The translations under genes were made by a program, and so were the position numbers. From Neodothiora populina (Eukaryota), in NCBI RefSeq assembly GCF_041146345.1, contig NW_027191406.1, positions 248,001 through 312,000 of the forward strand: a stretch of DNA of 64,000 bases, given 5' to 3'. Under the pieces are notes generated by a model. The model searched no databases, was not told where the DNA came from, and saw nothing but the letters and a program-made list of their open reading frames with translations. Below are positions 6,739-64,000 of the stretch, one piece after another. Positions within the stretch are counted from its first letter, which is position 1, and each line of letters begins with the position of its first letter.

Positions 6739-7481
6739 ACTAATAGCAGAAATGATTTTCTACTAATGCAGATTATTGCTCCCGTAGTAGTCGCAATGGT
6801 GCAGCAGATACCCCCTACCTCTCGGATTTAAGTAAATTAGATGTCCGTTGCAGTGAGACACGCACGAGCTGTGCAATGGCAAGTTCTTACAACTGTACAG
6901 TCTCGCAGAGAAATCGATGAATGGACCAAGAGCTCTAGTCCAACATGTTGAATTTGAACTTCCACAAGTGAGTGCTGTCGATGTCACTCAATGCTCTCGT
7001 GTATTCCTGCGGTTGAGCTCCCCACTTCCCCCAATGCTCCAACTTGCACAAAACGGTTCGGTTGTTGCATCCTGCCGGCGTTTTTCTTGGCCAAATCGGC
7101 CACTCGTCTTTCCCGACGCCCACTTCTTTCTCGCGAAACGGATCTCACGTATAGCGAGCGCCTTACAGTACATTGCTGTTATAGTAATGTATCGAAGTCA
7201 CTAAATCGCACGTCAACATTCGGCTATAATAATACTAATCTTGTGAACCGGGCATCGCACCAGTACGCGTACACGCGTCATTCTGAGCTGGGAGGAAGTG
7301 TCTTACAACACTTTTCAACCTATCCTGTTTTATATCTCTTCTGGCGCGAATCAATACAATCATTCCCTGGCTTATTGTCTTACTCACGGACAGACCAAAG
7401 GAAAGACGGGGCATCATAAGCTCCCTTGATTGGCGTGAACCAGTCCTGCTCTGTCCCTCATAGTCGGCGAGCACGCGAAAT

Positions 7482-11850: not shown

Positions 11851-14800
11851 TCAAGATCCTTCTCCTGATCCCGAGTCCTTGAGAGACAAGGAGATAGACC
11901 CGATGCTCACAGCCTTCTGAGGCACACCACCGCCATCCTTACTCTTGAGACTGCCTCTTCTCCTAAGTGTTGGTGTCTGCTCTTTCGTGTCTTTGGGACT
12001 GCCAACATCCTTATCGAGATCTGCCGCAGATAGTTCGCTTCGCACACTGCTTGCTGAGTTGCGACGCTTCACGCCACTTCCGGCGAGCTTTTCTAGGTCG
12101 TCTTCGTCGTCTTCGTCTCTACGACGTTTTTCGTGTAAGCGGTCCGGCGGCGAGGCTCCAGATGCTGTTGTGCGAGGCGAACCGCTCTCCACTGCGTTGG
12201 GAGACTTGTTTTCCTGGATAGCGGACGGTCCGCTGGGCGAAGCAGCCAGCACGTCCATAGTCTCGTCGTCATCGTCAGGGTATGCAACAAGTGGTGCCCT
12301 TGCCGGAGTTCCGCCATTCGAAAGAGCTTTTCCAACAGTTGTAGTCGGAAGAGACGTCTCATCCTCGTCTTCGCCGTCGGATGTGTTGAAGTATGCCTCC
12401 TCTTCCGCATCGGCATCCCTGAGACCTTGCCACCTTTGACCTCCATTGATTAGACCTTTGTTCGGCGTATCGGCACCTTGAGTAGAGAAGCTCGCCTCGT
12501 CTCCTTCTATGCCGTTCTGAATCTGATCGTATTTGTCCACCAGACTTTCGAAGATATTCACGTATGTGATGCCAAGAAGCTTCTCTCTATAATTTTCCAC
12601 CAACGGTACGATTAATTGCTTCAGATGCTCTTTTCTTATGTATTCGAAGAACTCCAGACTCGCAGAGTTCAGCAAGTTGTCCCGGGGCATTGTCTCGTAG
12701 ACAAGACCAAGCAATGGTTCAAAAAGGTGGTTCGCAATGATCTGCCGGTTGTGGTACTCGTCTTTGAGTCCTATGCAGATGCGGAACCACTTTAATGCAG
12801 TGAGTTTCAGGTGTTTCTGACCACACGACAAAAGCTGAGCAATGCGACAGTGGAGATTCTCGGTCAAGATGTAGTATTTGCTGCGGTATTGATGTTGTCG
12901 GACGAAGAAACTGAGTATTTCGACCAGATGAGTATAGAGGGAAGCCTCATTGACGGAAATGTGCTGCACTGTAGAGTTCGAGTTAGCCATATGCTGGATA
13001 GAAGCTGCATTACGTCAAGACCCACGTGATTCTCGATGTTCAAGATCCTTTAGCGGTTTGAACAGTCGCTGGGCGGCATCATCGTAGAAGTTATCAACGA
13101 AGCTTTCCATCTGAGCTCCAATGTTAGGATTGCCTCGCATCTTCGCCATGAAGTCACCGTTAGTTCTCCCTAGCATGTCCATCGAGGCTGAGCTGGCATT
13201 AGGGTCCAATAGAACTTTGATCGCATCCGCCATCTGTGCCTTGACGCCAAGATCAACCTCCACCAATAGCAGCTCGATTAAGGTGTCTGTGAGCGGCTTT
13301 GTCTTTTCATTTATGGCCTTGAAGATATATGTTCTCATCATGATTGGATCATGGTCAATCAGGGCGACAAGGACATCGCTACCAGCGACTCGGACAGCTG
13401 GATCATGATGACGAAGTGCAAAGGTCAATACGTCCAAAAGTCCTCCCTGGATGAGATTGTGGTACAGCTGGGCGCGCGATTGAGCCTGGATGTTCTTGGC
13501 TATGGCAGAGCAATTCGAGATAAACAGGACTGCATCCTTTTTCCTCTGCTCGTCGGTTTGCTGTGGAGCAAAAATCTGGAACAGGTCGGTCAAGAAGGCG
13601 GCATTAGATTGAATATGATTAACAATGTCGACTTGGTGGAAGAAGATCATCGAATTGAGAACGGAGAATGTAGGGTCATCGAGGATGCGAGCCAATACAA
13701 CGTCCTTGAGATATTGCAGACGATAGATGTAATGTATCTTACGTTTGATCTCAGGGTTTTCGATCTTGACAACCTCTCTAAATTTCGATTCGTCAGCGAG
13801 GAATTGTCGGTGGTTTGCCTTGTGGCTTGGGAAATCGGGATCGTCTGCGTTATAGGGTCAGCGGGGGCGAGGCAAGACTGTAAGGACGTTTGATCACACT
13901 CACATTCCAAAGCACCAACAACACCAAGTATGGCTTGATCTGTGACGACGAATTCTATGATTGAGGCGTCGTTCAAAAGAATAAGAGTTTTCATGATATT
14001 GCACAGCTTGTGGAGATCGTCAATATCCTCGAGGTCTTCGGCCATCTCGACAAGGGGCAACAGTTTCGGTATGTATAACGACTCGCCGGCCATTATAAAT
14101 TTGGCTAAAGCATCTCGGCCAGGGGCGGTTGAGCTGGCAGAGCGCATGATGTTTTCGATTTCCATAAGGTTTCCAAGCTCTGGATTTGGAAGGAGGATAG
14201 GATTGGAGTTGTCTATCATGTCGTCTGAAAGGCCATCATCTGTCAGAATGTGAGCGCCGAGGGATTTTGCGATTGGACCACACGTACCTGGATGCATTGC
14301 AACAAGACGCTGCTGCGCTTCGCTAACAAATTCCCTGTAGAGGAGCGTAAGTATATGCAACTTGGGCGGCTAAGGCAAACGCCAATACTGACCAAATTTG
14401 CGAGCAACCATCGGCTTCCTGGAAACTCAATGCCATGTCCACACCGGTAGATTCGGTCCATACGATCAAGGTATCTGGTAAGGCGTCAATTGCGCTCTTA
14501 ATCTGCCAGTCGTGACTGACTATCCGCCAAGAATGTCATCGTACCCTGCTGTTTCTGATAGCCATCATCCCGGGAGATCTTGGTCTCTAGTAGAGTCCTC
14601 GACGGCTCATCCTCTGACTGCACAACCACTCGAGCTTCATCTCCAGCCTGCTAAAAGTCCGAGTTAGTCAATTCATTCGATATCTGGACAATATGTTGAC
14701 CGCCATCATCACTAGGTAGGGCTGGTTGAAGGTGGTACTGGCAATAGATGCTGCGGTTCTACCAGGCTATGCGAAGAGGACATGCAAAGGAACGCATGAG

Positions 14801-30046: not shown

Positions 30047-30129
30047 AGCCGAAGGCGGGGCTCGAACCCGCGACCTTGAGGTTGTCTCTTCATAAGAGCC
30101 ACACGCTCTACCGATTGAGCTACCCCGGC
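30047..30129 (-). tRNA. tRNA-Lys(CTT) with a 10-nt intron
   Basis: Reverse complement reads GCCGGGG TA GCTC AATCGGTA GAGC G TGTGG CT CTT A [TGAAGAGACA] A CCTCA AGGTC GCGGG TTCGAGC CCCGC CTTCGGC T. Cloverleaf, 73 nt after intron removal. Confidence 0.95.
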
Positions 30130-35767: not shown

Positions 35768-36100
35768 TGCATGTGCTGATGCTTGTACAGTGGTGCAGGA
35801 ACCAGAAGAAGACGGTAAGACAAGGGCACGAGGGCAATATGGTACAGTAGTCCCTGTGAACCAACCCAACCTCAGACTACTGTGCACTAGACGTCAGATC
35901 TTGTCAGTTGCAAACTGTATTCAGATGCGATTTTCCCCCCTTCCCCGGCTTTCTTCACTCAGGTCCGTCTGTCATTTTTATTGTCAGCATCAATAAAAAA
36001 TTGAAACAACACCCGCATCAGCTACGAATCCCCGGCTATTCTTTGAACATCGCGAAGCAGCAGAGCAGCACCAGCACCAGCACCAGCACCAGCACCAGCA
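35628..36100. repeat. Microsatellite cluster upstream of UBP12: (CTGCT)n ~35630-35661, (GGCACA)n ~35735-35766, (CAGCAC)n ~36066-36098
   Basis: Read directly from the sequence. Confidence 0.9.
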
Positions 36101-36355
36101 GGGCCGAGACTGATTTTCTCACACACGCTCTTTTTGCTTTTGTGCAGCTCACACTACATCATCGCGACAGCTGTCGAACAGCGTCCCATCGAGTCGGCAC
36201 ATTTTCGTGGATTAACACGCACGTGTGGTACAGTCGGTGCCTGTGCAGAGCCCGGGAAACATAGACATAAAAGCGAACAAAACACCAATCCACGGGACAG
36301 GACCCCGGCTGATCAGGGCTGCCACCACACCGGCAGCTCACCCATTCCTGCCATC

Positions 36356-39300
36356 ACGGCTTCTCCAAAGAGGCGCAAGATCTCTCCGCCTGCCGAAGAA
36401 GGTGTAGAGCACGACCACAGTGCACTGTTTGCTCCTCAATTGCATGGTCACGACCGACGACACAACGACAGCGATCAACGTCACTCCTCTCCATCATCTT
36501 CCACCTGCTCTTCCTCTCCTGATCCGCCACCTTCACGTCGCGGCCACCTGGATCCGCCGTCTTCACCATTGCGCTACATCCCTCCTCATCTTCAGAGTCA
36601 AGTGTCCGACCGTCCCCCGTCCGCCTCTGCCGCAAGCTCGCCGAGTGACGCCTACGCCGCTCTGAACCTAAGCGCAAGCAGTTTCTCCGATACCATGTCA
36701 GATGATCGAAATGTTCAGGATGGGGCAGCTGCGAGCCGTCAGAGATCGCTTTCTCCGACCAAGAGGTCTGCGGCACTGATGGAGGGTGCCGGAGAAGAAT
36801 CAGAGATGCACACCGCTCCTTCCATTCCTTCAGATACGGCCATGCCTGACGACACGCAGTCGGACAAGAAAGAGCAAGATGACGACGCCGAAGACTTGCC
36901 CCCACACACGTCCATGGACACGGCGCCTGTCGCCCCGACTGCTGGTGTCGCAGCTGCGACCATTGACGAACAGGTGCAGCAGATCATGGAACTCCTCAAG
37001 GAGCCTCTCACAGAGGGACAGAAGGGCTTCGTCGTGGCACACCGATGGCTAGGGAGAGTGCTGGCGAGAGCGAGCTCATTACCCATGACTGCTCCCCAGG
37101 GCTTTGACAAGGACGCTACAGAGGGCGAGGTTGGCCCAGTCGACAACTCCGACATTCTTCCTCATGGTTCCCAACATACCCTTTCGCCGTTCGAATCGAG
37201 CGAAGATCCTTACGTCCCGCTGTTGCCTGGTCTCACAGTGGGTCAAGAGTTCGAGATTGTCCCCCAGGGTGCCTGGGATCGCATCGTCTCGTGGTATGGA
37301 GTGGCAGAGGGCCAGTTACCGCTTGTCCGCTATGCACACAACACTGCGCCATCTGGCTCGGCAGCGAACATCATCTTCGAGACGTACCCTCCAATCTATA
37401 CCATTCGGAAAATGATCCCGGGGGCGACCCGTCTGTCCATTCCTCCAACTCCGCCCGCCACTTCCAACCCCAGTCAGACGAGCACCGGCAACACGACGCC
37501 AGAGAAGTCTTCCGACCAGGCTTCTGTCAAGATTGTCGCTTCGCGCACTGAGCGTTTCCAGACCTTCCTCGCCAGGAGCAAGAAGGCCGCGGGCATCCCC
37601 CTCGCTCACAAAGTCAAGATTTGGAGACAACTCAACACAGACCATATCAGCAACGAGAATGCACCCTCGACCGAGCCTGGCATGCTCACGCCCGCCACTT
37701 CTCGCAGCACGTCGCCGTCAACTGCACCTGCTGCAGATAGGTCATCGTCGTCTTCGCAGAGCCTTGTTATGGACGCCTCCGTCTTCTCCAAGTGGGAGGA
37801 GGACATCGACTACGAGAAAGTGGATGCAAAGGATGAGACTGCCAACGACAAATACAATGGCAAGGCGACACTGGGCACCCTCGAGCTTGGCCAAGACCAG
37901 GTCTTTGTCCTTGAAGAGCAAGTACGCGGCCCTGCCGGTGGAGAGTATGCATCCGATGCCCGTCGCAAAGCTACAGCCAAGTCGCAAGACGGTGCCGCGA
38001 GCGGAGGTGCAAGCACGCCTTCATCGACTGGCCCCGTCACGAGAGGCCGCACCAAACGCGATGGAAGACCGCGCGGTACCGTTGGACTGACCAACCTCGG
38101 AAACACCTGCTACATGAACTCGGCGCTGCAGTGTATCAGTCGCGTCGAGGAACTTGCTTTGTATTTCCTACACTCCAATTTCAAAAAGGACATCAACCCA
38201 AGCAATCCTCTAGGCTACGGCGGTAGAATGGCCAAAGCCTACGCTGATCTCCTCACCGGCCTGTATGCTCCAGGTGCTACTTCTGCATTCCGTCCCAACC
38301 AGTTCAAGTCTGCTCTAGCTTCTGCTCAACCCATGTTTTCCGGATATGGTCAGCAAGACTCTCAGGAGTTTTTGAGTTTCCTCGTTGATGCATTGCACGA
38401 AGACCTCAATCGCATCCAGAAGAAGCCTTACATAGAGAACCCCGACTCCGATGACAGCACCGTTCACGATCCAGAAGCTATCAAAGCCCTTGGTCAGACT
38501 TATCAGGACAACCACCGCCTCCGCAACGACTCCGTCGCAATGGATCTTTTCAATGGGTTTTATAAGAACACCATGATTTGTCCCGCGTGCGACAAAGTCA
38601 GTGTCACCTTTGACCCCTACTCACTCTTGACCCTGCAGTTACCCATCGAAAACACGTGGCGTGGTCGAATTTACTTTGTCCCTCACCTTGGCAAACCGGT
38701 CACCTACGAGGTCGATATCGACAAGAACTCTACCTGGAAAACCGTGAAGCAGTACATTGCGAGCAAAACCGATAGGCTCACCTACGATCGACTCATGTTC
38801 GCCGAGATCTTCAGCCATAAGATCTACAAAGTGTTCAGTGATAACGAAACCATTTCGGAAAGTGGTGTCCAGTCCAACGATGTCCTATGCATGTACGAGC
38901 TACCGGAGTCTCCAACAAACACCAATCATTCCGTCAAGAAGAACACATACCGGAGCCTTTACTCAAGTCCTGAACCTCCGTTACCCGGCATGGACTCACC
39001 ACTGGCCGACCGCATGGCTATACCCGTCATGCATTCCCTGGGTGCGTCACGGGGGAGTTTGCCCAATGTAGTCTTGAACCCCACCTTCATCCTAGTCACT
39101 AGAGACGAAGCCAGGAACTACGACGCAATATTACGCAAGCTACTTGCTGCAGTCGCGCCAATGACAACGACAGACTTCTTGCATGAATTCAGTCAGGATC
39201 GGCCATTGCCCTCCACCAAAACGACAGAAGGCGATGCAGTTGCGCCTGCAGAGGACAACTCTAGTGCTTCGGCAGACGCGGAAGGTCAGATTACCGACAA

Positions 39301-41313
39301 TTCCGTCCCATCTGAAGATGGATATGTGGATGTTTCGGTGAGAGACGAGTCGGGAGGACCCAAGGCGCAGAGCGCCGAAGGAGTTTTGGAGCCGTCAAAC
39401 TTCCTTCCTGCCGCATTTCGAAATCTCTTCGAGATAAAATACGTCGAGGGCACCTCTGGAGACATGTTCTGCACCGGCACGGGAAGCATTGGTGTCGGAA
39501 AGCTCATGCAAGATCGAGTCCAGCAACACAGCCAGAGACGTGACTCGACCGCATCCCTTCAGTCGACAGCTTCGGAGAGGAGTCAAAAGTCGAGCACGAG
39601 CGCCTTAGCCCGTAGTCCTCCCTCCAGCGACGAAGACGCTCCTGATGTCATCCTCGGCGGGCAGGGCAACGACTTCTCCGGCGACGTACAAAGTGATGAT
39701 GATCTTGCCCAGTCGTCCGTTACCGTTGCGTCGAAGCAGTCTCGACGTCGCGACTTTCATAACAAGCACAAGAACCGAAAGAACAACAAGACTTACTCGA
39801 AGCACGCTCGGCGCAACAGCAAGCAGTCCGCCCGGTCGAACACTTCCCGCGCATCCACTGCACAGCCGACGCCCGAGTCAGACGAGTACTACATTCGTCT
39901 TGGAGAAGGCATTGTTCTGGACTGGCATGAGGAAACTTACGACGCCCTTTTCGCTGGCGATCGGTCAGGCGACGACATGCGCGGCACATTCACATTCGAC
40001 CCCAAAAACATGCCTGTCGCAGAGGACTTGGCTCTTCGGGAAAGACTGACCAAGCGCAAGAAGCGTGCCCAAGACGGCATCACACTAGAAGACTGCTTTG
40101 CGGAGACTGGCAAGACAGAGATATTGTCGGAAGAGAATGCATGGTACTGCAATCGATGCAAAGAGTTGCGACGTGCAAGTAAGACACTGGAAATTTGGAC
40201 CGTGCCGGACATTTTGGTGGTGCATCTGAAGCGTTTCAGCGGAGAGCGATACAGACGTGACAAGGTGGATGTACTGGTTGACTTCCCTCTCGAGGGATTA
40301 GACTTGACGAAGAGAGTCGGATGCAAGGAGGATGGCAAAGATTACGTCTACGATCTTTTCGCCGTCGACAACCATTATGGCGGTCTCGGTGGCGGTCACT
40401 ACACTGCCTATGCGAAGAACTTTTTCGACGGCAAGTGGTATGACTTTAATGGTAAGTTTGTTGACATGATATCCACCGAACTGTACTGACATTGTTGCTT
40501 CTAGACTCGTCGGTGTCGCAGCAAAACCCTAACAAGGTCGCCTCGACGGCGGCGTACTTGCTGTTCTATCGTCGCCGGTCAGACCAGCCATTGGGACCAC
40601 CTGCGCTGCAGGAACTGATCAACAAGGTCAAGAATCCCGACGTCGACGACGCCTCGGATGCCGAATATGACTCTTCGGGGGAAGGGGCGCGTCTCGGCGA
40701 CAGATCCTCAGCTTCCTCTCGCCTGCTGCCTGGGTCGTCGAGCGCTGGAACAGCCGCAGCAGGAGCTGCCAACGAGACGCTTCCACCAAAGGGGGGCGCA
40801 AGTGGCCTTGGCAACGCAGCGAACCAGGTAGCGAGACTGAGGGAGATGAGTGAAGACGACGAAGGGTATTCGTCTGGACCCGTGACGAACCTGACTTCCG
40901 GCTGGGGCTTTGGTGGCCTCGGCGATGAGAACTTGCACAGTCTCAGTGGTGGCAGTGGTGGTGCTGGCAGCGCCAACACCCCCGCAGGAGACGACGACGA
41001 CGACGACGACGCAGCTTCAGATCGACCAGAAATAGGCTCGGATTACGCAGGCTCGAGCGGCGGCGATCGACTGATCAATGATTCCAATGACTTTGACGAT
41101 GATGTCCCTGGACACGGAGGCGATTGGTCTTCCGGCATCAATCAAGACGATGACGACATGTTCATGGATGCCCCCGACGACTCGCTTTATATGGACGCAG
41201 ATGAGAACCAGCCCGAGCAGCAAGAATACGAGATGGAAGCAGGAGGAAAGGTAGTCACATCGTCATTGTCGTCGACCAATGAGCAGCACGGCAACAGCAT
41301 GAATGGAGAATAG
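36356..41313 (+). CDS. UBP12: Ubiquitin C-terminal hydrolase, Ubp12/USP4-USP15 type (DUSP plus USP). First in-frame ATG is 36695; proposed ACG start at 36356
   Basis: DUSP (FVVAHRWL...GPVDNSDI...FEIVPQGAWDRIVSWYG); Cys box GLTNLGNTCYMNSALQC; QQDSQEFLSFLVDALHEDLN; His box YDLFAVDNHYGGLGGGHYTAYAKN. Intron ~40452-40503, then DSSVS...AAYLLFYRRR. Confidence 0.93.
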
Positions 41314-42611: not shown

Positions 42612-44253
42612 TCATGGGATGAAGCTGCGGACCTTTGTTGCAGAGTCGCGTCCGGCAATAGCGTAGAATGCCCCCACGACAGCGACGGCAACAGCGATAC
42701 CCCTGTTTGAAAGTCAGCTCGTGTCCGTATGAAGACAAATCTACCAACAGAACTTACAGAGATCCGGCGCGATCGCTACAGAGCTTACTGAGCCAGTTCC
42801 ATAGGCCAACCTGCTTCGCGTCGCTGTCCTTACTTTCAGGTGCAGGATCGGAGACCGATTCCGACTCCGATGGAGGCGCTACATTATTAGTGGCACTGTC
42901 TTCATGTGCTTGACTGAACTTGGGAGTGGTTGGACGTGGGGCCTTTTGAGGTGCATCGCTTTCATCGTGATTATTCACTTTCGACTGCACCTCACGTGTA
43001 GGAGTCATTGGTGGCGTAGGCGGTCCGCGGTGCACAGGCTCGTGAGCTGATAGCGTGAGCTTGGTCACAGGTTCCTTTTGGTCGGTCATATATTCGGCAG
43101 CACCAGAAGTGACTTCTTGAGCCGAGCCTGGCATAACCGTCGTCTCCTCCAGTTCAGGAATTACTTCCTCGGCCAGATCCTCATCAATTGCATCAAGGTG
43201 GTCACTCGAACCCTTGGACAAAGACGGCGAGGTGGCAGCACTGAAGCTGATAGCAGATGAGAGAGTCGGAGATGGAATTATCGCGTCGAGCGCTGAGCCA
43301 TCATCTGAGGTTCGGGAGCTGACGCGGTGTAGATGCTTGATTATATCATCTCTTGCGGTCGGGAACTTCTCCAGAGTTGGATCGCTGAGGTCTTCGTCCT
43401 CGAATGGATCAGACCTGTGCGAGTTGAAAGAACCGGATCTAGCGGAGCCGCTTGACAGACGAGGACGGGCGCCGGTAGGTGACATACTTTCGTGGCGGAA
43501 GAGAGGTGGAACGTCGTCATCGTTGGCAGGATTTGTGTGTATCCGCGAAAGAGACTCATGTCTGAAAAGTGGGGAGGAGAGGGGCTCCTCGTCATCCTCG
43601 TTATCCTGGTCAGCCTCATCGTTACCAGCATTCGCGTGTATTCGAGAAAGAGACTCATGTCTGAAGAGGGGCGAGAAAGGCTCAATGTCGTCCTCGTCCT
43701 CATCTTCGAGACTAAAGTCAGTATGATGAGGGGTAGGAAGAACACTGTTCTGCGGTTCGTGAGCTGACAAGCCATCCTGTCCTGGATGATGGCCATTGAG
43801 GTCGCTAGTGGCGGACTCTGGCTCCTGAACTGCAGCCGTGGCGTCATCATGTACATGCGTCTGCACTGCATTCTCATGTTCATGGGTCTGCTTAGGTGCA
43901 GAGGTCTGTTGTGCTTTGACCACGAGAAGATTGTTGCGGTTACCAGCACCATCGTCAACTGAACAAGAGGTCAGCTGGTTGTTGCGTCAAGGAGAAGCGA
44001 ATGCAGCAATGAACGTACCAATATCATGTGTTTCGTCAAGAACCCACCAGTCTCCCGGACCTAAGCGGAATTTGTACTGATATTCACCTTCCTCGAGATC
44101 AAACTCCTTCCAAAAGTTCAGCTCTCCACTGTAGTCATCACGCTTGCAGTCCATCTCGATGGGACGCCATGGCTCATCCCCCAGTGACCCTGCTATGAAC
44201 ACAGGAGGCTGTAGGCCGGGGGAGCTGTATGAGATTTTGACCTTTTGTGTCAT
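42612..44253 (-). CDS. CBM48/AMPK-beta-type glycogen-binding domain protein with acidic linker and C-terminal transmembrane anchor; 3 exons (alternative upstream ATG at 44439)
   Basis: VKISYSSPGLQPPVFIAGS...W...GEYQYKFRLGPGDWWVLDE...DDGAGNRNNLLVV (CBM48-like). Introns 43959-44018 and 42703-42757. Last exon LGIAVAVAVVGAFYAIAGRDSATKVRSFIP*. Confidence 0.82.
43480..43710 (-). repeat. Intragenic ~99-bp tandem duplication plus a third partial copy, encoding PLFRHES(L/M)S three times
   Basis: gtgtatccgcgaaagagactcatgtctgaa at ~43537 recurs as gtgtattcgagaaagagactcatgtctgaa at ~43636. Confidence 0.85.
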
Positions 44254-46574
44254 GATGGGACTACCGGAAGCTTTGGAAAGTGATTGCTTGACTGGTCCGA
44301 CCCAAAAAGGTGTTTTTGGTTGAACTGCAAGAGATGCACTCTTCACTTCAGAAGTTCGGTTAGAAGCGGGTAGAGCTTCGTGGGCAGAAGACACAAGAGA
44401 CGGGTCGCTGCGCCGGGCGAAGTCAGTAACTGAAGTCATGATAGCAGCGAAAGTTGGATCTTCAGTGTCGTTCTTTCTTTCTATGTCTTTGTTTCCTGTT
44501 ACTGCGGAAGAAGGAGAAATGGTAGTGCAATAAGAGAATGAAGAAGTGCAGGTTGTCAGGTGATGGATTGATCAATACAAAGGTACAAGGTGAACAAGAA
44601 GCATCTGCAGGTGGGGTCATGTTGCTGAGTGAGATGAAACGTACCTGCTGTATGACGGATATGTGGTGTCAGAAGCTGTGCCGTCTTCTGCTGTACAGGA
44701 AATGGCAGGAACAGCGAGGGTTTTGTTTCAATTTTTTTCTGTCAGAGTGACGACAGCGCAGCAGCAGTCCAGAAAGGTATAGATACTTGGATGGGATTAT
44801 ACAGTGAACAAGGCACAAGGCGGGGCTTTTGGAACGTGGGGAACCAACAAACGGTGAGCGAGACAAGTTTGAGGATTAGTATTTAAAAGCACGAGGCGAG
44901 GAACGATGAAGTTGCAATGAGGATAACAAGGACAAAAACGATCTGCACCTGCGAAGCAACTATACCTCCGTAGAAAAGAATGGAAAGCAAGCTTAGCGTG
45001 ACAGGAAACTGGAATGCAAGAGATGGGAGGGACTGGAATTGGTTGGGCGGAGCTCTGCAGGCTATGATATAGCCTGGCGTGATACCTGCTCTGCCTGGTT
45101 GATACTTTTATACCCCAGCGATTACTTTGTCTCCAGATTGACACTGTATACACCAATGCGCTGGCCGATGAGGAGTTTGCTCATCTCCACAAAGTTCGCT
45201 GTCGTCCCTCACTCCCACCGTTACCGGATTCCTGATGGCACAAGGTAGTTGTGTAAGCTCGATTGCGCTTTGAAGTTTACTTGTGCTCCAGCTTCGCTCA
45301 ATGCTTGCCAGTGACGACAGAAAGCCAAGTCTGGTGGGGATCGAGTTCGCGCCCCGCAGTCTTCCCCGGATGTCAACACAACGGGTAAGGGCAAAGCAAG
45401 GCCGACTCGGCAGGTACCACGAGTATAAACTTTCGACTTCGACCAAGTCCAGACTAGCACTTGTCCCCAACAAGGCTGCACTTGCACAGCAGCAGAACTC
45501 CGCACGAATAGTCGTTGTATCTTGATGGACAAGAAGCACATCGCTTGGGCGACAACACTACGGAGCGGACGGCTCGCTCAACGCTCTTAAACAAAACGCT
45601 GGACGACTGATCGCACGACTTACGATCGATGTGTAGGACACGAAATCGTGTCTCACGAGCCGTCAGACAAGAACATAACACAGTAGAAGCAGACAAAGCA
45701 TTTGATGTAGATCACCCGTGACGACAGGACAACCTGACGATCATGACTTGCCCTGCATGAGGCCTCGAACTCTCGGGACAGAGAGACAAATACCCAGTAC
45801 GCAGGTATCGACGTAGACGGTCATGTCCAGAAAGTATCTCGAGGTATTCCGGCGACAGACCCGAGGAGGAGGTACTGTACCGTGACTTGCCCCGCCTGTT
45901 AGACCCAGACATAAATACCTTTGTGGCTAAGCGGATCTTAGGGAGACGCATAGATTCTTTGCAAAAGTTACAGTTCGTCTATTTGCAAGCTGGCGAGTCG
46001 TAGCGCTACCGTGTGTGCATGCAACATGTTCGCCGTTCACAGAGTCGACCAGTAGAGCGTTGACGGTAACAAAATTAGAGGACCACCGGGTTCTGTCTCA
46101 ACGCTGGATGCAGAACAGGCATTATAGATTCTTCTAAAATGAGGCTCACGATCGCAAGCGAAGAGAGCGCGGGAGCCAACGGATGGCGAACATAAATTGC
46201 GTTCGACAGGTTGTCGCACTGATGGCTGACAATGATCATAATTCGCCAGCGTCTTCTGTTGTCCTCTCGCATTGTAGCAGCAGACATAAGGCTTCGTCTC
46301 CACAGGTTTCGAGGGAATGTAGGCTCATAGGGTACCGTAGCGGTACAGAGGGAAATCTTGGTATACCAACCAGCGCGATTGACTCGTGGCGGAGTGAGAC
46401 GAAGTGTACGGAGGTAGAGATAAGAGGTAGAGAAATATGAATAAGGCGTCCAAATAGTGATGTCTCCTATAAGCACGCCTCTCTGGAGTTGCTCAAGGCA
46501 AGACCCCCAGGATTTCGCCACCCCCCCCCAGAGAATAACCCCATATATACCCCCTCCAATCCCCGTACATTCAA

Positions 46575-46868
46575 TCAGGCGCCACTACCCACCGGCTTAG
46601 TCGGTGGAGTGGCCAGTCGCCAGCCTGAAAAAAATCAGTCCTGTACGGAGCATGAGAGGTCCCTGGTTCGAGCCACCGTCGCGTGATAGCCCTTCGACAA
46701 ACCAGAGTTAGACTTACGCTTCCTTCCTCATGTGCCATTTCCCCTACGTTGTGAAGGGGCGTAGTGCAAACTACGCGAACTTCTACACTTGGGAAAATGG
46801 TTGAATACAGCTGGTTTCTTGCCCCCCTCCGTGGGGGGAAAGTTTTGCTCGGATTTGGAGTAACAATG
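46575..46868 (+). ncRNA. Unclassified structured RNA candidate with Pol III A-box/B-box-like elements
   Basis: Multiple nested helices with G-U pairs on the + strand; GCAA tetraloop hairpin; CGGCTTAGTCGG (46593-46604) and GGTTCGAGCC (46665-46674); upstream ATATATA; no credible ORF. Confidence 0.55.
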
Positions 46869-46950
46869 ATGGAGGCTTTAGTATCTAAGTTTATTCGATG
46901 ACGCTCTTCAGAAGTGGTCCGTCGAGAAGAGGAAGAAGCATTATCAAAAA

Positions 46951-46982
46951 TTGGATAAAAGTTGGATAAAAATTGGATAAAA
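46951..46982. repeat. Tandem repeat TTGGATAAAA(R) x3
   Basis: ttggataaaa g ttggataaaa a ttggataaaa, read directly. Confidence 0.9.
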
Positions 46983-47331
46983 GAACTAACACTTGCCCGC
47001 GCTCAGCCTCTTCTTCCTCCACGTGGCAAGACTACGAGCTGGCCTTCTTCTTTTGCGTTGTTTTCATGCCATGTACCTCCATGAGAAATTCATGATGGAC
47101 ACGCCGACTGGACAGGAAATCCCCTTTAGGCAGTTCCAGTCAATCGAGAGAAAGATGACATGTATACAGCTCGGTTCGTTACCACGCCCTACCCATCGTC
47201 TTTTGTTCCGCTAGCCTTGATGCGTATGAGACCGACTGATCGAGCCATAAGACATTAGCGGGGGTTAGCGGGGGTCCGTCGTCCAGATCTATGGAGCGAA
47301 AGTATGATCCAGAGTGGGTGGGCACAACAGC

Positions 47332-48331
47332 CTAGGTTCGTGAGGGAGGCGGCGGCGGCGGCGGCCGAGGAGGAGGACAAGCTGATCCATTGCCAAAGTA
47401 TCCGACTGGCGCCGTCGTCGACAATTGCGGCGGTGCATGATGGAATGGTCTGACTTGAATGTCGTAGTAGACACCGGCTGTCATTTCGGTCAATTGGGAT
47501 GGTGGTCGGTAGAGTGTAGGGTAGCCAGAACAACGCGGACGCTCTGAGGTGGTCGCGACATAAGCCTGTCCCGCGTCTGTCGACAACGACTGATTCGTCA
47601 CACCAGAAGACCGCGCTGGTATTGTAGCCTGCGGAGAAGCGGCAGGTTGACTGGACCGCGACGCGTCATGGTAAAATTGCGTCATGGAATAGTCGCCAAA
47701 CTGTATCCACCACCAGAGAGTCAGCCACTGGCCGCGCTCGCAAAGGGCAGATAAGGCCCCTGAGTGGCAGACTGAGATAGCAACAAGGAAAAGCAGCACC
47801 TCGTGTTATATGACAGAGTAGATAGCACAATAGATCCAGGATACTTCAATCATACGCGCATGACAGCGCCAATGGCTCATACCGTTGGCTGCGAGGGGCT
47901 TCCATTCTGTTGCTCCAGCTGCTGCTGCTGTCGTTGCTTGTCCTCAATTTCCTCGTCTTCGTCCTCGTTATCGTGATGGCTGTTGTTGTAGTTACTGCTG
48001 TTACTGTTGCCGATGGCCTGCTTGCTCTCCTCGTCGTCATCGAGCTCCATCCTCTTGGCTAGTTGATCGAGCAGAAAGGCGCGCTCGAGACGCATCTTCA
48101 TGATGGCGCGGTTGAGACGAAGCTTGCGCAGACGGGCCGAGTCATTGGCTTCTTCGACTTCGTTCAGGCGGCGTTTGAGCTCGATGCATTTGCGATAATA
48201 TGCCTTTTCGACGGATGGCGCCAGAGGCGTGTCTTGGGTTGCGCTGGCTGTGTTTATCGTCAGTCGCAAGGTCCCTCATAAACAAGGCTGCTGTGAAGTC
48301 ACGAATCCAACTCACCTCCAGGTGAAGGCAT
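47332..48331 (-). CDS. INO80 subunit F / Nhp10 N-terminal-like coiled-coil protein; 3 exons, last exon tentative
   Basis: MPSPG, intron 48248-48315, then APSVEKAYYRKCIELKRRLNEVEEAND...IMKMRLERAFLLDQL. Intron 47701-47882 leads in frame to a Pro-rich exon. Confidence 0.65.
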
Positions 48332-48921: not shown

Positions 48922-51822
48922 TTATGATCCGTTCCTCTCTTTCTCCTCAAGCTCTTTGACGTAGCGCACGAATCCTTTCTTGTGCACCAAGCCCACGAAT
49001 CTCCCCTGCTTGAGCACACAGATATATCGCAGTCCGAGTTTCGAAAAGCATTCGTATACCAATTCCATCGGGCTGCAGATGTCCAATGCCAGCGGCGAGG
49101 GGTCGATATATGCTGAGAAATCAAGTGGAGCATTCGATCCGGTGGAAGCGCCTTCTTCTTCATCGTCTTCATCATTATCCGAGGCAGCCGACTCAAAGGC
49201 CATCCTGGCCCCTCGCGGTCGAGAGTGAGTGCTGGTCATTTGACACAACGCATCATCCTCTTCCGACCCCAGACGGTCAAGAGCAAACTCGAGGTCCGGT
49301 CCAGGGATTATGCCCACCAGGGTACCGTCTTTCACGATGGGTAGACCTCCGTCGAGTTCACCAGCCATGTGCATGTGATCTAGTTGACTGCGCAACTGAC
49401 TGGCGGCGACAATCGGCGAGCTAGAGACGTCAATGATACGGGAGGGATTGACCGCGGGTGTGATGTCACCGAGATCTTCTGTGAATGGTGGGTGAGATTT
49501 GGCGTCCAAATACGGGTAGGAATTCATGTCTGTGAGAAGGTCGTAAATGCTGAGCGGCTCCAGTGCATCAGCCGTCCATTTCGACACAAGCACTCCGATC
49601 GAGAATGGGAGGACATGCTCAAGTGACCCAGTCAATTCGAAGAGAATGACTGCAAGCGTGACGGAAAGGCGTGTGACGCCGCACATGGTAGCCCCAGCCG
49701 CCACCAGATCGTACACTCCTGGCGTCACACATGATTCCGGATTCCCATCCATTGCGCACTCGCGGAATATGCCCCAGTGAGGATAAGCGAGTGTGATATA
49801 TTGGACAACGTGACCGACTATGCGGCCGAGGAGGCCGCCAACAACCATGGAAGGTACGTAGATCCCTGCAGGGATCTTGACTCCGAATGTTACCACGGTG
49901 AGCAGAGATTTAACAATAAAAGCAACTGCAAGATACCAGATGACCTGTGGGATATTGTCCTCTGTGGGGCACAATCCGTAGCCTGATGGTGTGAACGTAG
50001 AGCATGGACTTGCGAGCTCATAAAGCAATTCTGCAACCGGCATGCGAGTGTACTTGTTCCAGTAGCTGACCAGACCAGTAATGAATGCCACGAGGCAGAC
50101 CTCAAAGAGAGGGTGACCCTTGATCATGGGAATACGCCTGAAGGTGCGAGCCCATATGCGCGAGGCTTTGATGAATAGAGCGCCGAGAAGCCCACCCAAA
50201 ACGCCGAGCAATATGAAGATTACCATCTCAAAACTTCTCCAGTCGGTGAGATATCGAACTTCGAAAAGAACGATTTTGTTTGTGCCATATGGATTCAGGA
50301 ACTTCAGAGACAGAGCCGCAGCCTAGAGATTACGATTAGCGATCATGGGAGTGGATTGGATGGAGCTAATTCGAACAACTTACTATGCAACAGAAAAAGG
50401 TCCGGAACAGAGTCTTTGGCGGAAAGTAGTAGCTGACTTCCTCCAGTGAAAACAATACGCCTCCAATGGGACTGCCAAACGCAACTGCCACACCTGCCGC
50501 GGCACTGGCGCTCAAGATTTCACGTCTTTTTGCGTCATTGGAGCTATACTTTTCGAACATTCGGCATGCCACATTACCTATACAAGATGCAATGTGGACG
50601 AGCGGGCCTTCTTTTCCGATGCTGAGACCAGAGGCAACGGCAAGGATGAGACCTATGGTCTTGAAGACAAGTGTTCTCAGACCCAGAAAGCCTCTGATGA
50701 TAAAGCCACTCAGTATAACCTTGACCTCTGCCACACCGCTGCCAGCCGCCGGGAAATAGACCATCGGAGGTCGCTGAGTGGCCTGGACAAACCTGCGGGT
50801 GGGGCTGTCGAGGCTGTCTTTCCCGGCATCGGGGGCCGGTAGGGTGTTGCGGCGTTCTGCACCGAGATCCTCATCCAAGGTGGAAAGAGAAATGGCAGAA
50901 CTGATGACTGTCCTTGTCCGCAAGGTGACCAGGCATCCCAGACAGGCAAGCAGCATAACCCAAAAGACGAAGACGGCAAAGTCCAGGAACTCGTTCTCCT
51001 TTCGTCCTGGAGTCAAGCGGGTAGACCAGCGCATCCAGTTGTCGCAGACACTGCCGCCCTCACAGCAGCGTTTCTTGCTCTGGTACCAGCCAGAGCTGCA
51101 GTATCCTTCCTTCCAATCGAAAATTGCAGCCTCGGAAGTGTCGATCAGATAGGCTACGCCCGCAGTAAGGCAACCGATGATGGCCACGAGTATCCAGCCT
51201 TCTGCGGCATCGAAGAGTGCCTGGACTCTTGCCTTGAACCCCTTTTTACTGCGTAGTTGCTTCAGGCGGAAGGCATCGGCTATGCTGTCTTGCACCCAAT
51301 CGGTGGAAGTGAACTGATCGTACCAAACGCGGTCATCGACGTAGATGGATGCGGTCGATTTGGCGAGCGGGTCGGTATCTATAGGAGATGTCCGGTCAGT
51401 TTGTACTTGATGCTGTAGTGAACCACAGGGAACAAACCATCTGCTTCATTGCGCTCTGCTCCCAGGGCTTTTGCGACACGGAAGCCCAAGGAACCGTGTC
51501 GACTGTGATTCCGTCGTAGACTGTTTGTATGGCTCTGCTGTCGCTTGAAGAGCAGTCGAGGGGAGGCGGGCACACTCCGATAAGACGGCCGACCATCAGG
51601 GCTGTCAAGGAGACTCGAGTGCTCGTCGAGCAGAAGGCGAGAGGGCAGTCTACTCCGAAGATCCTGGTCCGACTGTCGCGTTACCGGCCTTCTCGTCGCT
51701 CTCGGTGAGGATGGGTAACTCCCTCCCCTGGACGCACTTGCTTGCTCATCCTCGTTTTGGATTTGGTTATCATCCTCTCCGTTTCGATTGTAGCTGTAGT
51801 AGGATGCCACTGATCTAGGCAT
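48922..51822 (-). CDS. CLC-family chloride channel / Cl-/H+ exchanger with CBS domains (Gef1-related), multi-exon
   Basis: YDQFTSTDWVQD; GSGVAEVK; GKEGP; AFGSPIGGVLFSLEEVS; PAGIYVP; SIYD; C-terminal CBS pair. Confidence 0.94.
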
Positions 51823-62505: not shown

Positions 62506-64000
62506 CTACGGCCTGTAGATCCGCACTTTTTGTTTGATCCGTTTCCGACAAGCTGGGCAATTCGCGGGCATGCGAGGTCGCGTCCGGTCATGTTGCATAA
62601 CCGGACTGTGTTGCTCGCTGCACCAAGAGCACATGACTAGATGGCCACAAGGTAGGCATGCTATGTCGGCAGTTTGTGTATAACAGATTTTGCAGTCCAG
62701 CTTGACAGTCATGTCCTCGTCGTCTTGTGGCTCGGGACGTCCCGAGTCCTCTGTGTCGAGACCCAGAGTGAGTGGCTCCTCGTCGTCTTCTGCTTCATCC
62801 GGCCCAGCGTAATCAAATGGCGGTGACGAGGAATTGGCAGAACCAAGACGTCGGTAGAAATCGATGATACTACGTGGTGCACTTCCCTCCAGGACTTGTG
62901 CTGTCCCGTTCTCTCGCATTCTAGCAATGATTGCTGTGCGTTCTGGCTCGGGGGTAGTACGGAGGAGATGCTCCAGGTGGTTCGGTGGCCGCGGTATGTC
63001 CAGCGAGTCGGTTGTCTCTATTCTGTTTGCGTCTTCAGCAGCCCCAGCGGGTGAGGCAGGCTGCGTCCAGTCCTGTAGACGAAGCATGGTGAAATATTCG
63101 TTCAAGTGGTCTTCATATGTCGAATTCGCCCCTGGTACGAGCTCTCCATTGATTGAAGTAAGCTGCTCCTGATCCTGCGTGGGTACAAGGTTACGCTCTT
63201 CACGTCTGACTTCCTCGGCCACTCTGAATCGATCCCATGCTCTAGAGAACATGCCTGCGATCGGACTAACATATTCGGAACCCTGGTTCTCCATGTCATC
63301 ACGAGCGCCAAACACGCGGCGATAATTCTCCGCCGTGCGCTGCTCGCGACGAAGCTGGGAGACTTGAGCTCGATGATCAGCCAGATCTAGATCAGCAACG
63401 TTCAGTAAATCCGAAGCCTCGTCTCGGTTGTGGCGAGCCTCGTTGTAAGCGTGCTGCGCAGTGACAAACTCCTCGGACACCTGGTCTCGATAGCGCTGAG
63501 CCTGTTCCAGGTGGGTCTGTGCCACATCGAGCCGTTGTTGTGCGTCTGTCAAAAATCGATCCCGATATACGCCACCAACAGGAGGCGCAGGAGTGTCTCG
63601 GACGGCTACATCTCCTTCGGAAGGCTCGGCGCCTTCCATATCGTCTAGTGTTCTGCCCAAGCTAACCAGCCTTCCTGTAGCCTCGGTCGGATCAGGCACA
63701 AGCTCGCCCAGGTCCCTCAACCCAGAAATAACACGCTCGATTCCATTGCGCATGCGATGCAGCTCTCTGCGTAAAGCTGTGATACGGCGATTCTGGTATT
63801 CTCTGTTGCGGGAACCCGTGAATTGCATGGCCTGTCCTGCGATCCTCATAGCTTGGGCTCTGGACGGTGGAGCTATGAGCGACCTTGAGGTGTCCGGCGA
63901 CGACGAGACCTCCTCTGCGGCGGCATCCTCAAACATTTGGTCTAGTTCAGCATCTAGTGATGGACCAGTCTCTGCGGCGACGCTCGGTAGATCTATGTGT
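62506..64000 (-). CDS. C-terminal RING-HC (zf-C3HC4_3 type) protein with coiled coils; 5' end outside the window
   Basis: CKICYTQTADIACLPCGHLVMCSWC...CPACRKRIKQKVRIY; the ORF is open to the window edge. Confidence 0.85.
   Translation of the reverse strand, partial: HIDLPSVAAETGPSLDAELDQMFEDAAAEEVSSSPDTSRSLIAPPSRAQAMRIAGQAMQFTGSRNREYQNRRITALRRELHRMRNGIERVISGLRDLGELVPDPTEATGRLVSLGRTLDDMEGAEPSEGDVAVRDTPAPPVGGVYRDRFLTDAQQRLDVAQTHLEQAQRYRDQVSEEFVTAQHAYNEARHNRDEASDLLNVADLDLADHRAQVSQLRREQRTAENYRRVFGARDDMENQGSEYVSPIAGMFSRAWDRFRVAEEVRREERNLVPTQDQEQLTSINGELVPGANSTYEDHLNEYFTMLRLQDWTQPASPAGAAEDANRIETTDSLDIPRPPNHLEHLLRTTPEPERTAIIARMRENGTAQVLEGSAPRSIIDFYRRLGSANSSSPPFDYAGPDEAEDDEEPLTLGLDTEDSGRPEPQDDEDMTVKLDCKICYTQTADIACLPCGHLVMCSWCSEQHSPVMQHDRTRPRMPANCPACRKRIKQKVRIYRP

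What the first reader, a model, noticed from the sequence alone, without database searches (positions are those of the whole stretch)
46540..46870. Unannotated ~290-nt highly structured element with Pol III-type internal promoter motifs: candidate novel fungal ncRNA
Seen in sequence: almost every segment pairs on the + strand. Hairpin 1 is TCAGGC(46575)/GCCTGA(46628), enclosing GCCACT/AGTGGC and CCACCGGC-tta-GTCGGTGG. After an A7 linker, a multibranch domain is closed by CAG..CTGTA(46636-46645)/TACAG-CTG(46806-46813). Its arm A is GCATGAG 46650/CTCATGT 46733 enclosing CTGGTT-CGA/TCG-AACCAG and a mini hairpin GAG-TTAGA-CTT. Its arm B is CCATTTCCC 46735/GGGAAAATGG 46800, capped by GCGTAGT-GCAA-ACTACGC with a GNRA tetraloop. 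A C6/G6 hairpin, TTTT (46843-46846) and a TTGCTC/GAGTAA hairpin followed by ACA-atg come last. G-U pairs and the GNRA loop favour the + strand. An A-box-like CGGCTTAGTCGG (46593), a B-box GGTTCGAGCC (46665) and ATATATA about 30 nt upstream match the established layout of Pol III type-2 genes. It does not fold as a tRNA, and I could not find the hallmark motifs of U1-U6, SRP helix 8, RNase P/MRP P4, U3, or snR30 m1/m2. Inference: a stable ncRNA of unknown class. Alternatives are an atypical H/ACA RNA or a tRNA-derived SINE.
Basis: partly seen in the sequence, partly recalled or inferred. Interest (0 to 1): 0.8.

Follow-up and report, generated by a model that had tools for sequence, protein, structure and literature searches.

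The report
tRNA-type promoter cassette without a tRNA
An intergenic stretch of a filamentous fungus carries the promoter signals of a transfer-RNA gene but no transfer RNA, so it is probably a worn-down tRNA-derived unit or a chance look-alike, and its claimed rich RNA folding is no stronger than elsewhere in the same region.

Summary
The case for a "highly structured" RNA is weak. The 301-nt stretch folds with z -3.49 on + and -3.09 on -. Fixed-grid windows inside coding sequence of the same window reach z -4.48 and -4.04. Arm A, which holds the B box, folds no better than shuffles (z +0.70). Six other loci hold a 60-nt hairpin as stable as hairpin 1.

The promoter layout holds up better. A TATA, A-box and B-box composite picks out only this element and the window's real tRNA-Ile. 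It appeared in 0 of 400 simulated windows. A real tRNA gene in a related fungal contig has the same TATA-to-A-box spacing.

There is no Rfam match, no cloverleaf, no copy in the window and no target-site duplication. No genome is held and the metagenome relatives are not syntenic, so copy number, conservation and covariation stayed untested.

Best reading (0.38): a decayed tRNA-derived, Pol III-type unit. Rivals: a chance constellation (0.33), a unique new Pol III RNA gene (0.17), part of a Pol II transcript or promoter (0.12).

The parts
46544..46549 (.). TATATA (palindromic). It lies 44-49 nt upstream of the A-box-like motif and about 26-31 nt upstream of the putative start at 46575.
   Evidence: one of 18 TATATA sites in the window, against 4.46 expected. 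The spacing matches the real tRNA gene in L008, where it is 43-48 nt.
46575..46628 (+). Hairpin 1, an imperfect 54-nt palindrome. Its apical stem overlaps the A-box-like / D-arm-like stretch.
   Evidence: -30.5 kcal/mol and z -5.0 on +; -27.4 and z -3.05 on -. It is one of 7 loci of that stability in the window.
46593..46604 (+). A-box-like motif. It matches 11 of 12 positions of TRGCNNAGTNGG; the first T is a C. It lies within a D-arm-like stretch, 46595-46609, that is 12/15 identical to the window's tRNA-Ile.
   Evidence: The D-arm score ranks in the top 2-5% of 6,338 segments of 81 nt.
46629..46635 (.). A7 on the + strand, which is T7 on the - strand. On the minus strand it would serve as a strong oligo-T stop or as the pyrimidine tract of a candidate intron.
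   Evidence: read from the sequence.
46657..46678 (+). T-arm-like stretch including the B-box-like motif at 46665-46675 (10 of 11 to GGTTCGANNCC). It is 19 of 22 identical, with one gap, to the variable-loop/T-arm region of the window's tRNA-Ile. The T stem itself is not self-complementary.
   Evidence: It has the top local-alignment score in the window, tied with one locus inside a coding ORF near 63600-63950.
46636..46734 (+). 5' strand of the closing stem plus arm A. This part is no better folded than shuffled sequence.
   Evidence: z +0.70 on + and -0.47 on -.
46735..46813 (.). Arm B hairpin (46735-46800, with a 7-bp stem and GCAA loop at 46759-46776) plus the 3' strand of the closing stem (46806-46813).
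   Evidence: z -3.07 on + and -4.38 on -.
46818..46846 (+). C6/G6 hairpin followed directly by the first T4 run on the + strand (46843-46846), which is the putative Pol III stop.
   Evidence: The window's real tRNA-Ile also has only a T4 run as its first T run, 27 nt after the gene.
46845..46868 (+). Small 6-bp hairpin with a 7-nt loop, then ACA and ATG. It is too small for an H/ACA pseudouridylation pocket.
46946..46982 (.). An 11-bp A-rich tandem repeat, 3.4 copies. On the minus strand it reads as three CCAAT/CCAAC boxes one helical turn apart. It may be a promoter element, or the A-rich tail of a SINE-type unit.

Best explanation
The stretch is a tRNA-gene-type RNA polymerase III promoter cassette with no tRNA in it. 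I read it as a decayed descendant of an intron-containing tRNA gene or of a tRNA-related, SINE-type repeat.

Layout:
- TATATA lies 44-49 nt upstream of an A-box-like remnant of a D arm.
- A B-box-like remnant of a T arm follows 72 nt further on.
- The first run of four T lies about 268 nt after the putative start.

Mechanism, if it is still active: TFIIIC would bind the two boxes, TFIIIB the TATA, and Pol III would start near 46575 and stop at 46843-46846. That would give an RNA of about 270 nt ending in UUUU behind a G/C hairpin.

Shown here: the motif constellation, its geometry, its rarity, and the lack of a cloverleaf. Inferred: the descent from a tRNA and any transcription.

The body of the putative RNA has two stable hairpins and one arm at chance level. 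It is no more folded than other parts of the window. Nothing points to a new class of structured RNA.
For: 1. Composite scan. The pattern was: A box with up to 1 mismatch, B box with up to 1 mismatch, 30-100 nt apart, and TATAWA 35-65 nt upstream of the A box.
- In the real window the A+B pair finds exactly two places, the genuine tRNA-Ile and this element. With the TATA requirement only this element remains.
- In 400 first-order Markov windows the mean was 0.28 A+B pairs per 64 kb, and 0 of 400 windows had the full composite.
- In 268,884 bases of real fungal DNA (16 loci) the A+B pair finds two places. One is a genuine tRNA gene in L008, with TATA. The other is a false positive inside the CLC gene of L015, without TATA.

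2. Geometry.
- The L008 tRNA gene has TATATA 43-48 nt before its A box and an A-to-B distance of 93.
- This element has 44-49 nt and 72.
- The window's tRNA-Ile has an A-to-B distance of 54.

3. Similarity to the window's own tRNA-Ile.
- The T-arm region is 19 of 22 identical. This is the best score in the window, reached by 8 of 2,530 window-strands, which are 2 loci.
- The D-arm region is 12 of 15 identical and all three differences are transitions. It ranks in the top 2-5% of 6,338 segments.

4. Terminator. T4 is the only T run behind the window's real tRNA-Ile, so T4 cannot be dismissed as a stop in this fungus.

5. Literature.
- Fission-yeast tDNAs use a TATA centred at -30 (PMC2040200, passages).
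- The tRNA-related SINEs of Aspergillus fumigatus are 140-493 bp and low-copy. Their A and B boxes are degenerate and none has a head that folds as a cloverleaf (PMC5063351, abstract and section 16).
Against: - No tRNA-model match, even when only 161 nt were searched. The only hit was a chance miRNA match of 12.1 bits.
- No cloverleaf at ARAGORN thresholds down to 60%. The two overlapping calls there need introns of 1,380 and 391 nt.
- The T stem and the acceptor stem are not complementary (read from the sequence).
- No second copy in the window by the repeat finder, nhmmer or lax blastn.
- No target-site duplication. The best flanking direct repeat is an 8/9 match 569 nt apart, which is expected by chance.
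- Each motif alone is at chance frequency.
- An A+B pair alone is expected in about 1 window in 5.
My estimate of about 1% chance per window is therefore rough.
- TATATA is four-fold enriched in this window and is also found in 3' regions.
- The window's own tRNA-Ile has its TATATA at -76, not -30 to -45.
- A SINE copy would not bring its own upstream TATA.
- In budding yeast tDNA terminators are T>=5 without exception (PMC3141230, passages).
- Copy number in the genome, conservation and transcription are all untested.
Confidence: 0.38

Rival explanations
1. Chance constellation. This is ordinary intergenic DNA in which a few stable palindromic hairpins, a promoter-type or poly(A)-type TATATA and two tRNA-box look-alikes happen to lie together. 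No dedicated RNA is made from it.
For: - The fold is within the window's own background. z is -3.49 here, against -4.48 and -4.04 in coding windows.
- Seven loci have hairpins as stable as hairpin 1.
- Arm A is at chance level and the two strands fold equally well.
- The single motifs are at chance frequency.
- A+B pairs occur by chance 0.28 times per window, and once in 269 kb of real fungal DNA.
- There is no Rfam, tRNA or protein signal.
Against: - The full TATA + A + B composite occurred in 0 of 400 simulated windows. In real DNA it marked only a true tRNA gene and this element.
- The TATA-to-A-box spacing equals that of a real tRNA gene.
- The D-arm-like and T-arm-like similarities lie in the right order on one strand.
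Confidence: 0.33
2. A unique, single-copy Pol III-transcribed ncRNA gene of an undescribed class. It would be made from about 46575 to the U run at 46843-46846, with hairpin 1, arm B and the 3' G/C hairpin as its functional structure.
For: - An upstream TATA at the position seen at a real tRNA gene is expected for a resident gene but not for a retroposed copy.
- There is no earlier T4 run in the 268 nt, and a hairpin sits directly before the U run.
- The predicted transcript has z -3.36, with 0 of 200 shuffles folding as well.
- It lies in a 2.9-kb gap without coding signal.
- No known family matches.
Against: - The structure is not beyond background and has no strand preference.
- The part that carries the B box is unstructured.
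- No homologue could be found or even sought properly, so there is no conservation or covariation evidence.
- From general knowledge, fungal Pol III transcriptomes hold very few non-tRNA genes, so the prior is low.
Confidence: 0.17
3. Pol II-related DNA. Three forms are possible:
- The core promoter and leader of an unannotated + strand non-coding transcript, with TATATA, a C/T-rich block and a start near 46575. It would run antisense into the 3' end of the INO80F gene.
- Part of a minus-strand transcript, either a long INO80F 3' UTR or a spliced non-coding RNA.
- Promoter DNA served by the triple CCAAT repeat.
For: - TATATA is four-fold enriched in the window and sits near gene starts and ends.
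- A C/T-rich block follows the TATA.
- Three CCAAT-type boxes lie 11 bp apart at 46946-46982.
- A candidate 90-nt minus-strand intron runs from 46715 to 46626, with GTAAGT, a CTRAY-like branch site and T7-CAG (read from the sequence).
- The INO80F stop is at 47332-47334, only about 460 nt away.
Against: - No ORF with coding signal follows on either strand.
- The + strand has three upstream ATGs before the ATG at 46866, and the ORF there is 11 codons long.
- All the signals are short and were read by eye.
- There are no expression data.
Confidence: 0.12

Closest known systems
tRNA-related SINEs of filamentous fungi (AfuSINE2 families of Aspergillus fumigatus; PMC5063351, abstract and section 16 read)
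   Same: - Size class: 140-493 bp there; about 270-410 bp here.
- Degenerate A and B boxes.
- A 5' region that does not fold into a cloverleaf.
- A tRNA-unrelated body.
- Location in gene-rich DNA.
- Low copy number is compatible with finding no second copy in 64 kb.
   Different: - No target-site duplication.
- No demonstrated second copy.
- No LINE-like or simple-repeat tail directly at the end; the A-rich 11-bp repeat lies 100 nt beyond the T4 run.
- The well-placed upstream TATA is not expected for a retroposed copy.
Decayed nuclear tRNA genes (tRNA pseudogenes), compared here with the window's tRNA-Ile(UAU) at 30047-30129 and the tRNA gene at L008:15096-15217
   Same: - TATATA at the same distance from the A box as in the L008 gene.
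- D-arm-like 12/15 and T-arm-like 19/22 similarity to tRNA-Ile, in the right order.
- An A-to-B distance of 72, which lies between the 54 and 93 of the two real genes.
   Different: - No acceptor, anticodon or T stem.
- No tRNA covariance-model score.
- No T run within 170 nt after the T-arm-like part, whereas both real genes have one within 30 nt.
Non-tRNA Pol III genes with tRNA-type internal promoters and an upstream TATA: rodent 4.5SH/4.5SI (PMC10137851, abstract in a search listing only); yeast SCR1 and the RPR1 leader (recalled, from no call)
   Same: Boxes A and B plus a TATA-like box about 30 nt upstream drive a small stable RNA that is not a tRNA.
   Different: Those RNAs are shown to be expressed and are conserved or multi-copy. 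Here there is no evidence of a transcript and no homologue. SRP and RNase P/MRP models did not match.

Membership tests
Pol III type-2 (tRNA-type) transcription unit | Internal A box | tested here: met
   46593-46604 matches TRGCNNAGTNGG in 11 of 12 positions. It is a weak match to the shorter consensus used.
Pol III type-2 (tRNA-type) transcription unit | Internal B box, 30-100 nt downstream of the A box | tested here: met
   46665-46675 matches GGTTCGANNCC in 10 of 11 positions. The A-to-B distance is 72 nt. The real genes have 54 and 93.
Pol III type-2 (tRNA-type) transcription unit | Oligo-T terminator | tested here: inconclusive
   There is only a T4 run, at 46843-46846. T4 is also the first T run after the window's real tRNA-Ile. 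The L008 tRNA gene has T4 plus T6, and budding yeast uses T>=5 (PMC3141230).
Pol III type-2 (tRNA-type) transcription unit | TFIIIC/Pol III occupancy and a Pol III-dependent transcript | not testable with these tools
   No expression or ChIP data are on hand.
tRNA gene | Cloverleaf recognised by tRNA models | tested here: not met
   - ARAGORN at default and at thresholds down to 60%.
- The Rfam tRNA model on 64 kb, on 1.4 kb and on 161 nt.
tRNA-related SINE | tRNA-related 5' head | tested here: inconclusive
   19/22 T-arm-like and 12/15 D-arm-like similarity to one tRNA, but no covariance-model score.
tRNA-related SINE | Several dispersed copies in the genome | not testable with these tools
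   - No genome is held.
- None in the 64-kb window.
- None in the 16 metagenome loci.
- No look-alike in the scan's index.
tRNA-related SINE | Flanking target-site duplication | tested here: not met
   The repeat finder on 46300-47150 gives only chance-level short repeats.
tRNA-related SINE | A-rich, simple-repeat or LINE-related 3' tail | tested here: inconclusive
   An A-rich 11-bp tandem repeat lies at 46946-46982, 100 nt past the T4 run. Similarity to a LINE was not tested.
Known Rfam families (SRP, RNase P/MRP, U snRNAs, U3, snoRNAs, others) | Covariance-model match at or near the gathering score | tested here: not met
   - Only tRNA-Ile at 30047-30129 reached a gathering score in the window.
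- The best match near the element was 17.2 bits against a gathering score of 75.
- The best match on the 161-nt search was 12.1 bits against 95.
H/ACA snoRNA | Two long hairpins with internal pockets, an H box in the hinge, and ACA 3 nt from the end | tested here: not met
   The hairpin before ACA (46845-46863) has 6 pairs and a 7-nt loop, so there is no pocket. No H/ACA family matched in Rfam.
Structured ncRNA (generic) | Folding beyond the genomic background, with a strand preference | tested here: not met
Structured ncRNA (generic) | Conservation with compensatory base changes | not testable with these tools
   No homologous sequence could be obtained.

The most novel reading that the evidence does not exclude
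A single-copy gene for a ~270-nt RNA of an undescribed class, transcribed by RNA polymerase III in a filamentous ascomycete. It would be driven by an upstream TATA plus tRNA-type A and B boxes, and would end in a G/C hairpin and a U run. It would add to the very short list of fungal Pol III transcripts that are not tRNA, 5S, U6, SRP or RNase P RNA.
Probability: 0.15. Interest if true: 0.65.

Novelty: new member of a known kind. Interest (0 to 1): 0.3.

Why it matters
If the cassette is active, it is one more tRNA-derived Pol III unit in a fungal genome. Such units are poorly catalogued in Pezizomycotina. They can act as small-RNA sources, as TFIIIC-bound chromatin landmarks, or as seeds of new RNA genes.

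If it turned out to be single-copy, conserved and expressed, it would be a new fungal Pol III RNA. That would be of real interest.

As things stand, the finding is mainly a caution. Dense hand-drawn pairing in a 300-nt stretch is matched by coding sequence in the same window. Only the promoter geometry carries information.

Tried and rejected
- **Known RNA families.** Rfam was run at gathering score on the window and at E<=10 on 1.4 kb and on 161 nt. It gave nothing but chance miRNA and CRISPR-repeat level hits.
- **tRNA or tRNA pseudogene by model.** ARAGORN with thresholds lowered to 60% gave 196 calls in 64 kb. None was a credible one at the element.
- **Own genome.** None is held, so copy number could not be counted.
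- **Relatives by synteny.**
  - A metagenome scan with the neighbouring CLC channel exon gave 16 loci at 38-81% amino-acid identity.
  - Only the CLC gene aligns in them. The INO80F gene, the downstream gene and the element are not there, by blastn, tblastn or nhmmer.
  - The records behind these loci cannot be searched.
- **Indirect route through spurious ORF calls.** The 143-codon minus-strand frame across the element found no relative in either protein collection. The first search had 19 candidates and none significant. The second had 0 hits among 1.84 billion representatives.
- **Protein-coding reading.**
  - 39 gap ORFs of at least 40 aa, plus P0001, P0002 and four more ORFs in or beside the gap, were scanned against Pfam. 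None reached a cut-off, except the INO80F exon outside the element.
  - Codon log-odds of the gap ORFs range from -0.17 to +0.13, against +0.09 to +0.25 for the training ORFs. The one positive frame (46441-46686, +0.13) has no Met.
- **Telomerase RNA in the 2.9-kb gap.** By eye I found no telomere-template-like run. This was not tested further.
- **SRP and RNase P/MRP.** Only loose resemblances by eye, and no model match. Rejected.
- **The scan's earlier notes.** Nothing was recorded near the place, by sequence, or in relatives.
Full report
**Setting.** The window is from a filamentous ascomycete. Earlier notes on the same genome say so, and the gene content fits: a CLC chloride channel on the minus strand at 48922-51445 and a ubiquitin hydrolase at 36047-40489.

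The finding lies in a gap of about 2.9 kb with no convincing coding signal.
- On one side is the INO80F-domain gene. It is on the minus strand, with its exon at 47877-48275 and its stop at 47332-47334.
- On the other side is the next minus-strand gene, whose ATG I read at about 44440.
- 39 gap ORFs of at least 40 codons were scanned against Pfam, and the six longest frames in or beside the gap were scanned earlier. None reaches a Pfam cut-off.
- Codon log-odds of the gap ORFs run from -0.17 to +0.13, against +0.09 to +0.25 for 14 long training ORFs. The one positive frame has no methionine.

**Is it more than chance?** Against dinucleotide shuffles the stretch has z -3.49 on the + strand and -3.09 on the - strand, with 0 of 100 shuffles reaching it on either. 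The putative transcript 46575-46846 has z -3.36, with 0 of 200.

The window itself is the better yardstick.
- I regressed MFE on GC for 638 fixed-grid 300-nt windows per strand. The grid windows over the element rank 26th to 82nd on the + strand.
That is my arithmetic's coefficients, and it places the frame among the best few.
- I tested three other grid windows, chosen as the most negative residuals. They have z -4.48 (6501-6800 +), -4.04 (3701-4000 -) and -3.30 (12601-12900 +). All lie in or antisense to long ORFs.

Piece by piece:

| Piece | z on + | z on - |
|---|---|---|
| Hairpin 1 | -5.0 | -3.05 |
| Arm A (carries the B box) | +0.70 | -0.47 |
| Arm B | -3.07 | -4.38 |
| 3' hairpins | -2.43 | -1.65 |

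- For arm A, 150 of 200 shuffles fold at least as well.
- A scan of 12,789 60-nt windows per strand finds 7 loci as stable as hairpin 1. Several lie in coding exons.
- The pairing is therefore real, but it is not unusual for this DNA. The two stable hairpins disagree about the strand.

**The promoter motifs.** Taken singly they are at chance frequency.
- B box with up to 1 mismatch: 14 matches against 12.8 expected.
- Short A-box consensus with up to 2 mismatches: 306 against 285 expected.

Taken together they are not. The composite was: an A box (either D-loop length, up to 1 mismatch), a B box (up to 1 mismatch), 30-100 nt apart.
- In the real window this finds exactly two places, the genuine tRNA-Ile(UAU) at 30047-30129 and this element.
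- Requiring TATAWA 35-65 nt upstream of the A box leaves only the element.
- 400 simulated windows gave 0.28 A+B pairs per window and no full composite.
- In 268,884 bases of real fungal DNA from 16 metagenome loci, A+B finds one genuine tRNA gene (L008:15096-15217, with TATA) and one false positive inside a CLC gene (without TATA).
- The L008 gene has TATATA 43-48 nt before its A box. The element has it 44-49 nt before.

From the real density of TATAWA (52 sites in the window), I estimate the full composite arises by chance in roughly 0.3-1% of windows. I would widen that to 1-3% because I set the ranges after seeing the element. One point counts against the TATA: the window's own tRNA-Ile has its TATATA at -76.

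**tRNA likeness.** Against tRNA-Ile:
- The element's 46657-46678 is 19 of 22 identical across the variable-loop/T-arm region. This is the best local score in the window, shared with one coding locus.
- 46595-46609 is 12 of 15 identical to the D arm, in the top 2-5% of 6,338 segments.
- All three D-arm differences are transitions, and by my reading of the sequence the D stem stays pairable through G-U pairs.

Against tRNA likeness:
- No stem of a cloverleaf survives.
- ARAGORN finds nothing credible even at 60% thresholds.
- The Rfam tRNA model gives no score on 161 nt.

**Terminator.** The first T4 run on the + strand is at 46843-46846, right after the C6/G6 hairpin. T4 is also all that follows the real tRNA-Ile within 60 nt. 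The L008 gene has T4 plus T6. Budding yeast uses T>=5 (PMC3141230, passages).

**Relatives.**
- No genome is held.
It returned 16 loci at 38-81% identity.
- None has the INO80F gene, the downstream gene or the element next to CLC.
- There is no second copy in the window, and there is no target-site duplication.
- The long minus-strand frame across the element has no relative in either protein collection.
- Conservation, covariation and copy number, which are the decisive tests, could therefore not be run.

**Leads from earlier notes (AI notes, not evidence).** In the same genome two similar first-reader claims were followed up. One, described as having a "leader hairpin and three-way junction", was judged a small family of diverged repeats. 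The other was judged a decayed tRNA-like relic. I could not compare sequences with them. The index found no look-alike of this element.

**Reading.** I weigh four things: the rarity of the composite, the ordinary level of folding, the lack of any tRNA-model score, and rough priors for each kind of object per 64-kb window.

| Reading | Weight |
|---|---|
| Decayed tRNA-derived Pol III-type unit (an in-situ tRNA-gene relic more likely than a SINE copy, because of the TATA) | 0.38 |
| Chance constellation | 0.33 |
| Unique new Pol III RNA gene | 0.17 |
| Part of a Pol II transcript or promoter | 0.12 |

The closest described objects are the low-copy tRNA-related AfuSINE2 elements. Their boxes are degenerate and their heads do not fold as cloverleaves (PMC5063351, abstract and section 16). 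Fission-yeast tDNAs, with their TATA at -30, are also close (PMC2040200, passages).

The 1.1-kb WEIRD RNA of Magnaporthe (PMC2104539, passages) is a different kind of thing. I could not compare sequences with it.

Noticed in passing
window 46946-46982 (flanked by 46929-46938 / 47010-47019): An 11-bp tandem repeat, 3.4 copies. On the minus strand it reads as three CCAAT/CCAAC boxes exactly one helical turn apart. It sits inside a perfect 10-bp inverted repeat. It looks like a binding array for the CCAAT-binding complex, but which transcript it serves is unknown.
   Followed up: partly
window 46715-46626, minus strand: A candidate 90-nt intron with a perfect GTAAGT donor, a CTRAY-like branch site and T7-CAG at the acceptor. 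It was read by eye only. If real, a spliced minus-strand transcript crosses the element.
   Followed up: no
window 44440-47332: A 2.9-kb gap with no coding signal, between the 3' end of the INO80F-domain gene and the start of the next minus-strand gene. This is long for a compact fungal genome, and room for unannotated non-coding transcripts remains.
   Followed up: partly
window 6501-6800 (+) and 3701-4000 (-): Two 300-nt stretches inside or antisense to long ORFs fold with z -4.48 and -4.04, more strongly than the element under study. They served only as controls.
   Followed up: no
window 30047-30129 (-) and flanks: An intron-containing tRNA-Ile(UAU) gene. Its only nearby TATATA is at about -76, and only a T4 run follows it, 27 nt after the gene. 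This suggests that short T runs may suffice as Pol III stops in this fungus.
   Followed up: partly
whole window: TATATA occurs 18 times against 4.5 expected (0 of 100 shuffles reach 18). From their positions relative to the long ORFs, the sites lie both upstream of genes and in convergent 3' regions.
   Followed up: no
window 47255-47275: A perfect 10-bp tandem repeat (2.1 copies, G-rich), within about 80 nt after the INO80F stop codon on the minus strand.
   Followed up: no
window 43517-43576 and 43616-43675: A 60-nt direct repeat, 83% identical and 99 nt apart, inside the long minus-strand ORF 42754-43986. It is probably an internal protein repeat. The ORF has no Pfam match.
   Followed up: no
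L008 15055-15235: In a related fungal metagenome contig, an intron-containing tRNA gene has TATATA 43-48 nt before its A box, an A-to-B distance of 93, and T4 plus T6 directly after the gene. It is useful as a reference for Pol III gene geometry in this group.
   Followed up: partly
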